Assembly (NCBI GenBank): GCA_963931155.1
Contig: OZ006978.1
Coordinates: forward strand, 1,428,692 to 1,492,691
Reading direction: 5' to 3'
Source of the DNA: an uncultured Clostridia bacterium
Lineage (GTDB): Bacteria; Bacillota; Clostridia; TANB77; CAG-508
DNA length: 64,000 bases
Shown here: piece after piece, positions 50,934-53,900 of the stretch
Layout of the letters: each line of letters begins with the position of its first letter
Numbering within the stretch: position 1 is the first letter of the stretch
Program-made: the position numbers and the translations under genes
Notes under the pieces: generated by a model
What the model saw: the letters and a program-made list of their open reading frames with translations, nothing else
Told to the model about the DNA's origin: nothing
Databases searched by the model: none

Positions 50934-53900
50934 ATGAAAAAACGTAAAAACCGCATGGCTCTAGAGAGAGAGAGAGAGAGAGAGAGAGAGAGAGAGCTAC
51001 ACCATTAAATAACCTACCAGTATTTATACTAGTAGGAATAGTTGTAATGCTAATAATACTAGTGGTAATATATTATATATTTTTAAGGTATTCACCAGAG
51101 CAAATAATAACATATAGTGGGTATGCAATAGAAGGAAAAGAAATGGTGGAGAACTTAAAGAGTAGTGATAAGTCCAAGTTAGCACCATACTTGGGCTTAA
51201 TTGCTGTGCAAGAGAATGATTTGATATATAAAAAATTAAATTCATATTACATAGGAGAAGATGATAAAAAAGAGATAGACATAAATTATCCAATATACAT
51301 AAATGAAGGAAATGCACTTTTAAACTTAGGGAAAAATACAAAATTAATAACAGTAAATTATGAAAAAGTAGAAGGCTACCCAGACTTCATGATGGCAGAT
51401 GGAGTAATGTATAATGGAGCTGATATAACAAGAGCAGATGGAAACAAGTATTTATTCCTAAAAAGTGAAGATGAAATATACACCAATGTAGAACCAATAA
51501 CAATAACAACAGCAAATGGAGAATATACAATAAAAGAATTTAGTAACATATATTTTGCAGAAGACCATATAGCATATTATGAGATGGAAGGCATGCAGAA
51601 AAGTGAAGAGCAGACTGACAATAATGCAGAAATTAAACAAGAAGAAAATAGTAAGAGCGATAATTTAAAAGATAGCTATTTACAATACAAAGAAATAAAC
51701 CCAATAGACCCAGATTCAAAAGCAAAAATAAATGGAGAAACAATAACATACAAAACATTATTAGAGAGATTAGATATTTTACAAACCGAAGAAAGCAATG
51801 CAAACAATAACAAAGAAGAAAATACATTAAATGAAACAGAAGAAGATGATGTGAAAAATACGACAAACGAAGAGAATACAATTGCAGAAGAAACAACAGA
51901 GCAAAACAATGGTAATACTAATCAAAATATGACAAACACAGAGAATAACAATAATAACGACAATAATGAAGATGAATGGCAAGAAGGAATGTGGGAAAAA
52001 CCAGAAGTAAGTTGTACAGACTTTGAAGGAGAAGTATATACAATAAGAACAAATTTATCAGTAAGAGATAGAGCAGGAGTTATAACAAGAGGAATAACAT
52101 TTGAAATATATTTAGATGGAAGATTAAATAGAAGAGTACAAGCTAGTCAAGCAGGAACACTAGAAATAACAAACTTACAACCAAGTTCAGAATATGAGAT
52201 AAGAGGAATATTCTATTACAATGATGAAAACGGTGTAGAACAAGAAGAAGAGTTTTACACAGGAAAAGTAACAACAAAATCAATAGATACATTAGGAACA
52301 TTAGACTTTAGCTTCCAAAATGGAAAGATATATTCAAATAAAATAGAATTAATACATTTGAAGCTAAATAACAATATAAATGAAGAAGTAGTAAGAGGAA
52401 TATCAAGAGTACAAGTAGAAATAGGAGATGTAGCATATAGATTAACAAATGCACAAATAGATGAATTAAAAGCAGGAAAAGAAATAATATATCAAACAAG
52501 TGAAAACTTAACATCAAATAGTAAGATAAAATATGAAATAACAGCATTTGATAGATATGGAAATGAATTAAAAGAGAAAAACAATACAGGAGAAACAATA
52601 ACATCAAAACAAGCACCAACATCAAGTATAAGAGTAACAAAACAAGATGTAACAGAAGTAGACCTAGAAGTAACACTTACAAATAAAGATAATGTAAGTT
52701 TAGAAAACTATAGATATGAGATAACAAATCAAAGTGGAGATGTAGTAAAGCAAGGAACACTAGGCAACAATGGAGTAGCAAGCAATGGAAACAAAGATGA
52801 TTTAGCATTTACGGACTTAGATCCTAATGGATATTATCAAATAGTAATATATGGAGATTATGACTTAGAAAATGGAGAAGGAGAACATCAAAATAGTGAA
52901 CTAGGAAGAGGAAGCTTTGTAACAAGACCAATAGCATCACTAGGATATATGCAAGTGAAAATAGATGACAAAGAAGTAACACAAGATAGCATTAATCTTG
53001 GAATAAGCATAGATGAAAACCAAACAGATGCAAGACTTTTAGCAATATTAGATAAGGTAGAAGTAGTAATTTATGATGAAGGTAAAAATATAGAAGATGC
53101 AGGAAATGATGAAAACAACTCAAATAATAATGATAGTAACAACCAAGGTGATAGCAATAACAACCAAACCAACCAAAAACAATTAGAACAAGAAGAAACC
53201 GAGGTACAACGCATTACATTCACACAAGAACAAGTAGAACAACTAAAAGTAGCAGAAGAAGTAGAACTAGACCTAGAGAGGCTAAACTCAAACACAAAAT
53301 ACAGAATAGATGTAATCACCACAGTAAAGCAAGGTTCAGTTGAAGAAGTAGTAGAAGATAAGCAAAACATAGACCAAGTAATAACCCTAAAGATGCCAGC
53401 AGAAGTACAAATAAGAAACCAATTTGTAATAGGAACAATGATAGACTTAGATATGAGAATAGAAGATATAGATGGAGCAGATTTAGTAGATAAAGTAAGA
53501 ATAGAAGTAAGAGATAAAGATAATAAATTAGTAGACTTAAGTGAGATGCCAACGAATGCAGAATGGGAAAGAAAAACATATGAGGACTTAACACCAAATG
53601 AAACATATACAATACTAGTGTATGCACCACAATACAATGAAGGAAGTACTGACGCAACATATAAAGCAGATTACTTATTAAAAAAGATAGAAATAGTAAC
53701 AGAAACAGGAATAAGTGGAAAGTTAGATTTGATAGGACTAGAAAAAACACCATCAGGAAAGAATCTAATAGATGCAAGTTCAAAAGTAAATTGGTACATT
53801 AAATGCTTTTCATTTACTGGAAATGAATATGGCTTAAATTATAACCCAGAATTAAAAATAATTACACTAGGAGGAGCTGGAACTCCCCGAAACATATATT

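What the first reader, a model, noticed from the sequence alone, without database searches (positions are those of the whole stretch)
50934..51050. (AG)17 tract places giant gene 3 in the same OFF phase
The geometry is identical to copy 1. The ATG at 50934 (frame 0) reads MKKRKNRMALE(RE)n and stops at ..LHH*, while the main ORF is in frame 2. Sixteen or nineteen units would be ON. Two paralogs share the same in-frame switch but carry very different tract lengths (8 versus 17), which argues that the tracts are actively length-variable.
Basis: seen in the sequence. Interest (0 to 1): 0.75.

Follow-up and report, generated by a model that had tools for sequence, protein, structure and literature searches.

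The report
Repeat-driven on/off switch, giant gene
A run of 17 AG pairs just after the start codon of a 3,200-codon surface-protein gene in an uncultured gut Clostridia bacterium currently puts the gene out of frame; the same site carries 10, 11 or 17 pairs in other assemblies, so it is most likely a slippage-driven on/off switch of a well-known kind in a lineage where this kind was not found described.

Summary
(AG)17 lies at 50963-50996. ATG 50934 reads MKKRKNRMALE(RE)nLHH and stops at TAA 51006. The giant ORF, in the other frame, is open through the tract to 60592.

Contigs from other metagenome assemblies have identical flanks at this locus but carry 11 or 17 units (out of frame) or 10 units (ATG 50934 in frame with the giant ORF). 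Paralog 1 shows 8, 12 and 13 units, which covers all three frames. The only canonical start codon downstream of the tract, ATG 51047, sits in the middle of the family's conserved transmembrane helix. It is therefore unlikely to be the native start.

This is classical frameshift phase variation by a dinucleotide repeat in the 5' coding region, as in H. pylori oipA or Mycoplasma M.MmyCI. It is a new member of a known kind.

The extra interest is in the context. The same leader cassette, (N/S)R(M/T)ALE-(AG)n followed by stops in two frames, precedes giant genes 2 and 4. There it is a separate leader ORF followed by a 28-bp terminator hairpin, the logic of the Streptococcus gallolyticus pil1 attenuator. 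Genes 1 and 3 look like deletion-fusions of that module. Switching within a population and the effect on expression remain untested.

The parts
50734..50761 (+). Promoter-like element: TTCCAA, 16-nt spacer, TGaTATAAT (extended -10). It is conserved upstream of giant genes 1, 2 and 3.
   Evidence: Read from the sequence. The same TATTCCAATTT...TGATATAAT is at 28560-28589, and a related one at 39499-39526. It is also present in orthologous loci. The consensus scanner did not flag it because the -35 matches only 3 of 6. Its function is inferred.
50934..51008 (+). Start ORF in the present phase: ATG 50934 to TAA 51006-51008, a 24-aa product MKKRKNRMALE(RE)5LHH. An SD-like AGGAAAGAG lies at about 50919-50927.
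   Evidence: The leader motif RMALE and the GGCTCT before the tract are shared by all four tracts in the window.
50963..50996 (+). (AG)17 tract, the variable element. It reads as Arg-Glu repeats in every frame.
   Evidence: 17.0 copies, 100% matches. Ten further contigs at the same locus carry 10, 11 or 17 units; seven of them have flanks identical to the window.
51005..51012 (+). TTAAATAA: overlapping TAA stops that close the two OFF frames (51006-08 for n=2 mod 3; 51010-12 for n=0 mod 3). The third frame stays open.
   Evidence: The equivalent TTA(A/G)ATAA follows every AG tract in the window and in the related MAG BRZ_MF bin81.
50996..60592 (+). Giant ORF 3: 3,198 sense codons with no internal stop. 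It joins to ATG 50934 when n = 1 mod 3 (10, 13, 16, 19 units).
   Evidence: It is 68% identical to copy 1, with dN/dS about 0.37, so it is under purifying selection.
51014..51085 (+). Transmembrane signal-anchor segment LPVFILVGIVVMLIILVVIYYIFL.
   Evidence: It is conserved in all 17 aligned family members, preceded by a basic tail. AlphaFold models a helix at residues 7-29 of the post-tract ORF.
51047..51049 (+). Internal ATG, the only canonical start in the giant frame downstream of the tract, and the start chosen by gene callers for OFF alleles. It lies mid-helix.
   Evidence: (P0004, P0041).
28659..28715 (+). Paralogous switch of giant gene 1: ATG 28659, (AG)8 at 28688-28703, stop at 28713-15. 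Same OFF frame as copy 3.
   Evidence: Orthologous loci carry 8, 12 and 13 units.
39654..39869 (+). Leader ORF of giant gene 2 with (AG)13 at 39683-39708. It is followed by an 8-bp hairpin (39727-39746) and a terminator hairpin (39794-39856) with U5 (39857-39861). In the present phase it is translated through the terminator. Giant gene 2 has its own SD and GTG at 39926.
   Evidence: z -5.3; conserved pairs, 5 of them with compensatory changes. This tract has 11, 13, 14 or 18 units in other assemblies.
61814..62429 (+). Two leader modules in series upstream of giant gene 4 (GTG 62477): an (AC)12 leader (61814-62044; terminator to 62057) and an (AG)16 leader (62208-62429; terminator to 62421). 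Both are in the read-through phase.
   Evidence: The same AC+AG tandem is in L002.

Best explanation
The (AG)17 tract is a slipped-strand contingency switch inside the first 21 codons of giant gene 3.

Proposed sequence of events:
- Transcription starts at the conserved promoter near 50734-50761 (inferred).
- Ribosomes start at ATG 50934.
- With n = 1 mod 3 (10, 13, 16, 19 units), they read MKKRKNRMAL-(ER)k-ATPLNN into the transmembrane anchor and the 3,200-residue ectodomain. The result would be a membrane-anchored giant surface protein whose short cytoplasmic tail simply carries more or fewer Arg-Glu pairs.
- With n = 2 or 0 mod 3, they stop at one of two overlapping TAA codons, 9 or 13 nt after the tract. 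The 9.6-kb ORF then stays untranslated. The window, with 17 units, is in the first of these OFF frames.
- Gain or loss of AG units during replication moves cells between the three frames.

Shown here: the frame logic, the length polymorphism at the same locus with otherwise identical flanks, the existence of ON alleles, and the intactness and constraint of the ORF.

Inferred: that the changes are frequent and reversible within a lineage, and that the protein is absent in OFF cells.

Genes 1 and 3 appear to be deletion-fusions of a leader-plus-terminator module that still controls genes 2 and 4.
For: - Frame logic.
- Same-locus polymorphism: ten further contigs carry n = 11 (six contigs), 17 (two) or 10 (two). 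In seven of them the 400 nt upstream and 200 nt downstream match the window exactly, leaving the tract as the only difference. Sample ERZ21549406 contains both 11 and 17.
- ON alleles: L042 and L043 (n=10) read MKKRKNRMALERERERATPLNNLPVFILVG... to the contig end and were called from that ATG. A more divergent relative, L010/P0001, is likewise ON at n=10.
- Paralog 1: n = 8, 12, 13, with 13 ON (P0040, L013, L049).
- Native N-terminus: all family members have a basic tail followed by a full transmembrane helix. ON alleles fit this template, and a start at ATG 51047 would cut the helix to 13 residues.
- Not a decaying gene: 3,198 codons without a stop at 28% GC, with dN/dS 0.37 against copy 1.
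- Cassette conservation: CG(C/T)A(T/C)GGCTCT-(AG)n-(C/T/G)TACA(C/T)(C/T)ATTA(A/G)ATAA is shared with the leaders of genes 2 and 4 and with BRZ_MF bin81. The second MAG, Lapin-027 bin83, shares only the part up to the tract. The ON frame of gene 3 (..ATPLNN) corresponds to the read-through frame of those leaders (..VTLLDN / GTLLNN).
Against: - No read-level data were available, so heterogeneity within one clonal population and reversibility are not shown.
- Several contigs come from the same or sibling samples, and some are noisy long-read contigs, so the number of independent observations is smaller than the number of contigs.
- The two n=10 contigs (L042, L043) are nearly co-terminal and may share reads.
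- All OFF alleles seen for copy 3 (11, 17) are in one OFF frame. That pattern could also arise from in-phase 6-unit changes rather than frequent single-unit slippage.
- A weak SD-like AGGA lies 9 nt before ATG 51047. Some translation of a truncated product in OFF cells cannot be excluded.
- There are no expression data of any kind.
Confidence: 0.8

Rival explanations
1. The giant protein is always made from the internal ATG 51047 (or by re-initiation after the leader stop at 51006). On this view the AG tract sits in a translated upstream mini-ORF, and its length does not gate expression.
For: ATG 51047 is the first canonical start in the giant frame. Gene callers use it (P0004, P0041). An AGGA lies 9 nt upstream, and the leader stop is only 39 nt upstream.
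Against: - ATG 51047 is residue 12 of the 24-residue transmembrane segment. The product would start MLIILVVIYYIFL with no basic tail, unlike all 16 other aligned family members.
- The Met is not conserved: it is Leu in P0016 and P0018.
- ON alleles with the upstream ATG in frame exist at this locus and at the copy 1 locus.
- The conserved two-frame stop motif directly after the tract has no role under this reading.
Confidence: 0.08
2. Gene 3 is a frameshifted pseudogene, or the frameshift and the length differences are sequencing or assembly artefacts of a difficult repeat.
For: Dinucleotide runs are error-prone. Several comparison contigs are noisy long-read contigs with homopolymer errors. 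Some unitig assemblies break exactly at the tract (L050).
Against: - The ORF downstream has 3,198 codons without a stop, and dN/dS is 0.37.
- n=17 is reproduced in a 468-kb contig from another sample (L038), and n=11 in several contigs with flanks identical to the window.
- The differences are of 1, 6 and 7 units, not only of one unit.
- The same behaviour is seen at three paralogous tracts.
- Only the tract differs between alleles.
Confidence: 0.05
3. Copy 3 works like copies 2 and 4. On this view the tract sets where a leader ORF stops relative to a transcription terminator, so control is by attenuation rather than by reading frame of the structural gene.
For: The leader cassette is homologous to that of genes 2 and 4, where a terminator hairpin follows. 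That mechanism is proven in S. gallolyticus pil1 (PMC3894217).
Against: - No terminator-like structure exists on the + strand between the tract and the ORF of gene 3.
- The small hairpin at 51013-51036 has no U-run and folds no better than shuffled sequence (z -1.2).
- The hairpin, the terminator, the SD and the basic tail of the B-type genes are all missing. The leader runs directly into the transmembrane codons.
Confidence: 0.04

Closest known systems
Helicobacter pylori oipA (hopH) and related outer-membrane-protein genes: CT dinucleotide repeats in the 5' coding region (PMC10564699, seen)
   Same: A dinucleotide tract (CT is AG on the other strand) lies a few codons after the start, within the N-terminal targeting region of a surface protein. 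The unit number sets the frame (in frame = ON). Strains differ in unit number.
   Different: The organism is a Gram-negative pathogen and the product a small porin-like protein. Here the organism is an uncultured spore-forming Clostridia and the product a protein of about 3,200 residues with an N-terminal transmembrane anchor. The tract encodes an Arg-Glu tail rather than part of a cleaved signal peptide. There is no sequence homology.
Mycoplasma mycoides subsp. capri M.MmyCI methyltransferase: (AG)12 in the coding region ending at a TAA (PMC3498834, abstract)
   Same: The same repeat unit (AG) in a low-GC Firmicutes-related genome, with a premature TAA in the out-of-frame state.
   Different: The gene controlled is a type III methyltransferase, not a surface protein. 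It is a single locus, not a paralog family sharing a leader cassette.
Streptococcus gallolyticus pil1 leader peptide: GCAGA repeats plus a premature terminator, an 'attenuation-like' phase variation (Danne et al. 2014, PMC3894217)
   Same: This matches giant genes 2 and 4 in the same window. An SSR sits in a short leader ORF. In one frame the leader is translated into or through a stem-loop terminator, so a ribosome would prevent the terminator from forming. In the other frames it stops well upstream. Gene 3 carries a homologous leader cassette.
   Different: In gene 3 the terminator and the separate start are absent, so the switch acts on the reading frame of the structural gene itself. The repeat unit is 2 nt rather than 5 nt, only one of three frames reads through, and there is no sequence homology with pil1.
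Clostridioides difficile CwpV: phase-variable large cell-wall protein controlled through a terminator in the 5' leader (PMC2784873)
   Same: A Clostridial large surface protein with stochastic ON/OFF control exerted in the 5' leader.
   Different: CwpV switches by site-specific DNA inversion, not by repeat slippage. In a 2025 review of phase variation, every passage mentioning Clostridia that was read concerns such inversion systems.

Membership tests
SSR-mediated translational (frameshift) phase variation, 'contingency locus' | A perfect simple-sequence repeat, long enough to slip, located inside the ORF downstream of the start codon | tested here: met
   (AG)17 with 100% matches, starting 29 nt after ATG 50934. 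None is expected by chance.
SSR-mediated translational (frameshift) phase variation, 'contingency locus' | Unit changes shift the frame: one frame gives the full-length protein, the others stop early | tested here: met
   n=17 stops at +9, n=18 stops at +13, and n=19 is open. The giant frame is open through the tract.
SSR-mediated translational (frameshift) phase variation, 'contingency locus' | Length polymorphism at the same locus among close relatives, confined to the tract, including both ON and OFF alleles | tested here: met
   n = 10 (ON), 11 and 17 (OFF) at the same locus; in seven of the contigs the flanks match the window with 0/400 and 0/200 mismatches. Copy 1 has 8, 12 and 13.
SSR-mediated translational (frameshift) phase variation, 'contingency locus' | High-frequency, reversible switching within a clonal population | not testable with these tools
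   No reads and no culture were available. The only hint is that one sample (ERZ21549406) holds contigs with 11 and with 17 units.
SSR-mediated translational (frameshift) phase variation, 'contingency locus' | Protein present in ON cells and absent in OFF cells | not testable with these tools
   No expression data exist. This is inferred from the position of the only downstream start, inside the transmembrane helix.
Leader-peptide SSR plus terminator attenuation (S. gallolyticus pil1 type) | The SSR lies in a separate short leader ORF upstream of a structural gene that has its own start | tested here: not met
   In gene 3 the leader runs directly into the structural ORF. The feature is met for genes 2 and 4, which have their own SD and GTG at 39926 and 62477.
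Leader-peptide SSR plus terminator attenuation (S. gallolyticus pil1 type) | An intrinsic terminator between the leader stop and the structural gene, overlapped by the leader ORF in one frame only | tested here: not met
   Gene 3 has no + strand terminator. The feature is met for genes 2 and 4: a hairpin of about 28 bp plus U5-6, z -5.3, conserved with 5 compensatory pairs, and a leader that reads through in one frame of three.

The most novel reading that the evidence does not exclude
One conserved (AG)n leader cassette is used in two mechanistically different ways within a single 35-kb cluster of paralogous giant surface-protein genes.

- Upstream of genes 2 and 4 it is a leader-peptide and terminator attenuator. 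Gene 4 has two of these in series, (AC)n then (AG)n.
- In genes 1 and 3, after a deletion that removed the hairpins, the terminator, the SD and the basic tail, it is an in-frame translational switch.

Together the independently variable tracts would give an uncultured gut Clostridia lineage a combinatorial, stochastically varied set of giant surface proteins. They would also document an evolutionary conversion of a transcriptional phase switch into a translational one.
Probability: 0.55. Interest if true: 0.65.

Novelty: new member of a known kind. Interest (0 to 1): 0.5.

Why it matters
Repeat-driven phase variation is textbook biology for Neisseria, Haemophilus, Helicobacter, Campylobacter and mycoplasmas. 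In the Clostridia, the examples found in the literature searched here are DNA-inversion switches.

This locus has four giant paralogs in one cluster, each behind its own hypervariable dinucleotide tract. That suggests an uncultured gut Clostridia lineage varies its largest surface proteins stochastically, which matters for colonisation, immune or phage evasion, and strain tracking in metagenomes.

There is also a practical point for annotation. Gene callers start OFF alleles at an internal ATG and miss the switch.

The side-by-side presence of the attenuator form and the fused form gives a natural experiment on how such switches evolve. It would also be only the second system with the pil1-type logic that these searches turned up.

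Tried and rejected
- Rfam: no family reaches gathering score anywhere in the window. Nothing was credible at E<=1 around either leader type.
- JGI metagenome scans: a pattern specific to the fused architecture found nothing. A looser leader pattern returned only unrelated high-GC or eukaryote-like repeats, plus one doubtful low-GC contig, L019.
- Function of the giant protein:
  - Pfam gives only a GLUG motif and sub-threshold fn3.
  - NCBIfam gives nothing above cut-off.
  - PDB sequence search gives nothing.
  - An AlphaFold model of the first 268 residues (pLDDT 76, pTM 0.71) shows the transmembrane helix and a beta-rich domain, with no Foldseek match in the PDB (best E 0.44). The AFDB library was not available.
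- The hairpin at 51013-51036, which might have masked the SD-like AGGA before ATG 51047, is not better than shuffled sequence (z -1.2 for copy 3, -1.9 for copy 1). It was dropped as evidence.
- Naming the organism failed:
  - The exact leader peptide and the RNase R occur in an NCBI/ENA contig of 1.75 Mb, but without names.
  - Sample codes are not in the paper library.
  - I considered segmented filamentous bacteria (my own guess, from the small AT-rich spore-former genome). I found no support: none of the best 120 RNase R relatives comes from a named or UniRef source.
- Programmed ribosomal frameshifting or transcriptional slippage on (AG)n were considered and set aside. This is on general grounds only, since both are known for homopolymeric or heptameric slippery sites rather than dinucleotide runs. 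Neither was tested.
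Full report
**1. What is in the sequence**

The window is AT-rich (about 28% GC). It carries spore-germination genes (gerA/B/C-type, 9736-13955), so it comes from a spore-forming Clostridia. It also holds four very large paralogous ORFs on the + strand.

At the finding's coordinates the tandem-repeat finder reports a perfect (AG)17 at 50963-50996.

- ATG 50934 is preceded by an AGGAAAGAG Shine-Dalgarno-like stretch. It reads MKKRKNRMALERERERERERELHH and stops at TAA 51006-51008.
- The 3,198-codon giant ORF ends at 60592 and lies in another frame. That frame is already open at 50948 and runs through the tract as ..SRERERERERERATPLNNLPVFILVG...
- Simulating extra units shows 18 units stop 13 nt after the tract at a second, overlapping TAA, and 19 units join ATG 50934 to the giant ORF.
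- Copy 1 has the same layout with (AG)8: ATG 28659, stop 9 nt after the tract.
- An (AG)8 run never occurs in 100 dinucleotide-preserving shuffles of the window.

**2. Is the tract really variable?**

The protein encoded immediately upstream (window 49496-50701, an AAA_14/DUF4143 ATPase) was looked up by exact sequence. It is on 23 contigs of public metagenome assemblies, and ten places were returned with their DNA. All ten contain the switch.

| Units | Contigs | Assemblies | State |
|---|---|---|---|
| 11 | 6 | ERZ21549406, ERZ21549410 | OFF |
| 17 | 2 | ERZ21549425 (468-kb contig); ERZ21549406 (226-kb contig) | OFF |
| 10 | 2 | ERZ21549411, ERZ21563861 | ON |

- In the two 10-unit contigs the ORF from the upstream ATG reads MKKRKNRMALERERERATPLNNLPVFILVGIVVML... 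to the contig end. The assemblies' gene callers started the gene at that ATG.
- In seven of these contigs the 400 nt before and 200 nt after the tract have no mismatch to the window, so the tract is the only difference. The others are noisy long-read contigs whose single-base indels shift the ungapped comparison.
- Four further long-read contigs found through protein homologs also have 11 units.
- A more divergent relative (about 91% DNA identity, L010) has 10 units and is ON. Its called protein P0001 begins MKGKSKKMKKRKNRIALERERERATLLNNLPVF.

Copy 1 was examined the same way through its upstream neighbour (window 27649-28452). It has 8 units in three contigs, 12 units (the other OFF frame) in one, and 13 units (ON) in one. 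A 94%-identical contig also has 13 units, with called protein P0040 MRKAKNRMALERERERERATLLNNLPVF....

The tract in front of gene 2 has 11, 13, 14 or 18 units across ten contigs.

Length variation is thus a property of all these tracts, and all three frames are populated.

Three caveats apply:
- Several assemblies are probably from related samples.
- Some contigs are redundant.
- No reads were available, so variation within one clone is not shown.

**3. Could translation start downstream of the repeat?**

In the giant frame there is no ATG, GTG or TTG between the upstream stop (50945-47) and ATG 51047.

An alignment of the window protein with 16 relatives shows a consistent template. Every complete member has a basic tail of about 10-50 residues, then N(L/M)P.F(I/L)L.G and a hydrophobic stretch of about 24 residues.

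- ATG 51047 encodes the 12th residue of that stretch. The Met is replaced by Leu in two members.
- An AlphaFold model places a helix over residues 7-29 of the post-tract ORF.
- A product starting at 51047 would have 13 hydrophobic residues and no basic tail, so it is unlikely to be inserted correctly. That last step is inference.
- The ON alleles fit the family template, with the Arg/Lys-rich MKKRKNR plus (RE)k as the tail.

The downstream ORF is intact. Compared with copy 1 it shows 68% identity and dN/dS about 0.37. It is therefore a maintained gene, not a decaying one.

**4. The wider system**

The same cassette precedes the other two AG tracts in the window at 39683-39708 and 62237-62268. 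The cassette is a short ORF ending ..(N/S)R(M/T)ALE, then GGCTCT-(AG)n, then (C/T/G)TACA(C/T)(C/T)ATTA(A/G)ATAA, which supplies stops in two frames.

At those two sites the layout differs from genes 1 and 3:
- An 8-bp hairpin follows the tract.
- Then comes a long hairpin followed by U5. The RNA fold is -61.6 kcal/mol with z -5.3.
- The structure is conserved in nine sequences, with five pairs showing compensatory changes.
- Only then come an SD and the GTG start of giant genes 2 and 4.

In one frame of three the leader ORF is translated through the terminator and ends 5 nt after the U-run. In the other two it stops 9 or 13 nt after the tract. This is the logic shown experimentally for the pil1 pilus operon of Streptococcus gallolyticus. 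There, a longer leader peptide lets the ribosome destabilise a premature terminator (PMC3894217).

- In the window, genes 2 and 4 are in the read-through phase, and genes 1 and 3 are OFF.
- Gene 4 has a second module with an (AC)12 tract in series at 61814-62057.
- The module also occurs seven times in two other uncultured Clostridia MAGs, with 11-17 units and mostly in the short-leader phases.
- Sixteen read-through leader peptides are present in the protein collection.

In genes 1 and 3 the leader runs, right after ..ATTAAATAAC, into the codons for NLPVFIL. These are homologous to NLPTFIL of genes 2 and 4. The hairpins, the terminator, the SD and the basic tail are missing. The ON frame of genes 1 and 3 (A-T-P/L-L-N-N) corresponds to the read-through frame of the leaders (V/G-T-L-L-D/N-N).

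The simplest reading is a deletion that fused the leader to the structural gene, turning an attenuation switch into a reading-frame switch. This is inference. It is supported by the wider distribution of the leader-terminator form, and by the 91% identity of the first 800 codons of genes 1 and 3.

**5. Comparison with what is known**

For gene 3 itself the mechanism is the classical one.
- H. pylori oipA has CT repeats in the 5' coding region (PMC10564699).
- The Mycoplasma mycoides M.MmyCI methyltransferase has (AG)12 ending at a TAA (PMC3498834). Both papers were seen.
- Gene 3 fails the two structural criteria of the pil1-type attenuator: it has no separate structural start and no terminator. 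Its neighbours meet them.

On novelty:
- No Rfam family covers the leaders.
- Literature searches for SSR-based phase variation in Clostridia, or for further leader-peptide SSR attenuators, returned only the pil1 paper and inversion-based Clostridioides systems.
- The protein family has no informative Pfam, NCBIfam, PDB or fold match.
- The organism could not be named. All close relatives of its RNase R come from metagenomes.

**6. Verdict**

The finding is real and correctly interpreted. It is a dinucleotide-repeat contingency switch, currently OFF, at the 5' end of a giant membrane-anchored surface-protein gene.

It is a new member of a known kind. It has added interest because the same cassette works as a pil1-like attenuator on neighbouring paralogs, and because such switches were not found described for Clostridia.

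- Confidence in the mechanism for gene 3: about 0.8.
- Still untested: switching rate, reversibility and effect on expression.

Noticed in passing
window 39654-39869 and 62208-62429: The (AG)13 and (AG)16 tracts lie in separate leader ORFs, each followed by a conserved hairpin and a 28-bp terminator hairpin with a U-run, upstream of giant genes 2 and 4. In one frame of three the leader is translated through the terminator, which is pil1-like attenuation logic. The gene 2 tract has 11, 13, 14 or 18 units in other assemblies.
   Followed up: yes
window 61814-62057 (also L002 - strand, about 5903-6130): A second leader module, with an (AC)12 tract and its own hairpin and terminator, sits in series with the (AG)16 module upstream of giant gene 4. 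That makes two independent repeat switches on one transcript. The same AC+AG tandem is in MAG BRZ_MF bin81.
   Followed up: partly
window 15172-28452: Orphan F1-like ATPase genes lie directly upstream of giant gene 1: alpha (23184-24542), gamma (24532-25305) and beta (25349-26737). No F0, delta or epsilon genes are nearby. The genes are embedded among unknown proteins (1,784 aa, 496 aa with fn3, 283, 178 and 267 aa). Alpha and gamma score below the NCBIfam equivalog cut-offs for the true ATP synthase subunits; beta just reaches its cut-off (465.1 vs 462.85 bits). Alpha and beta also resemble the mycoplasma F1-like and gliding-motor ATPase families.
   Followed up: partly
L004 and L006 (MAG Lapin-027 bin83): The same MNLENRMALE-(AG)11/14 leader is joined to a different terminator hairpin and a different downstream gene (MAKRLEENKKEQN...). 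In the read-through frame the leader stop falls inside the terminator loop. The cassette therefore appears modular.
   Followed up: partly
window 50914-50937: A mini-ORF, ATG AAA GGA AAG AGT AAA AAA TGA, has a stop that overlaps ATG 50934 (ATGA). In L010 one extra A in the A-run puts it in frame, giving MKGKSKKMKKRKNR.
   Followed up: no
window 38164-39471 and 49496-50701: Two paralogous AAA_14/DUF4143 ATPase genes each sit immediately upstream of a giant gene (2 and 3). Their role is unknown. They are highly conserved across assemblies, with exact protein matches on more than 20 contigs each.
   Followed up: no
window 60657-61410: A small nucleotidyltransferase (MntA-like, below cut-off) and an overlapping 133-aa gene lie between giant genes 3 and 4. 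They look like an MNT/HEPN-type toxin-antitoxin pair; the HEPN assignment of the 133-aa protein is my own guess, since NCBIfam found no family for it.
   Followed up: no
window 9375-9462; 28593-28625; 50767-50799: A 36-nt tandem repeat (GGGGACAGGCTCTTTACTGCCAAACATGTCACCTAA, 2.4 copies) lies at the 3' end of the RNase R gene. A related GGGGACAG-containing stem-loop sits just after the promoter of giant gene 1 and in L003, L010 and L013; gene 3 has a stem-loop at the same position (50767-50799) that lacks the motif.
   Followed up: no
L019 (ERZ1643249 NODE-11537, - strand about 1725): A low-GC (0.30) contig carries ..CACGGCTCT-(AG)12 about 55 nt upstream of a gene that starts with a basic tail and a hydrophobic segment. 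It may be a distant relative of the cassette.
   Followed up: no
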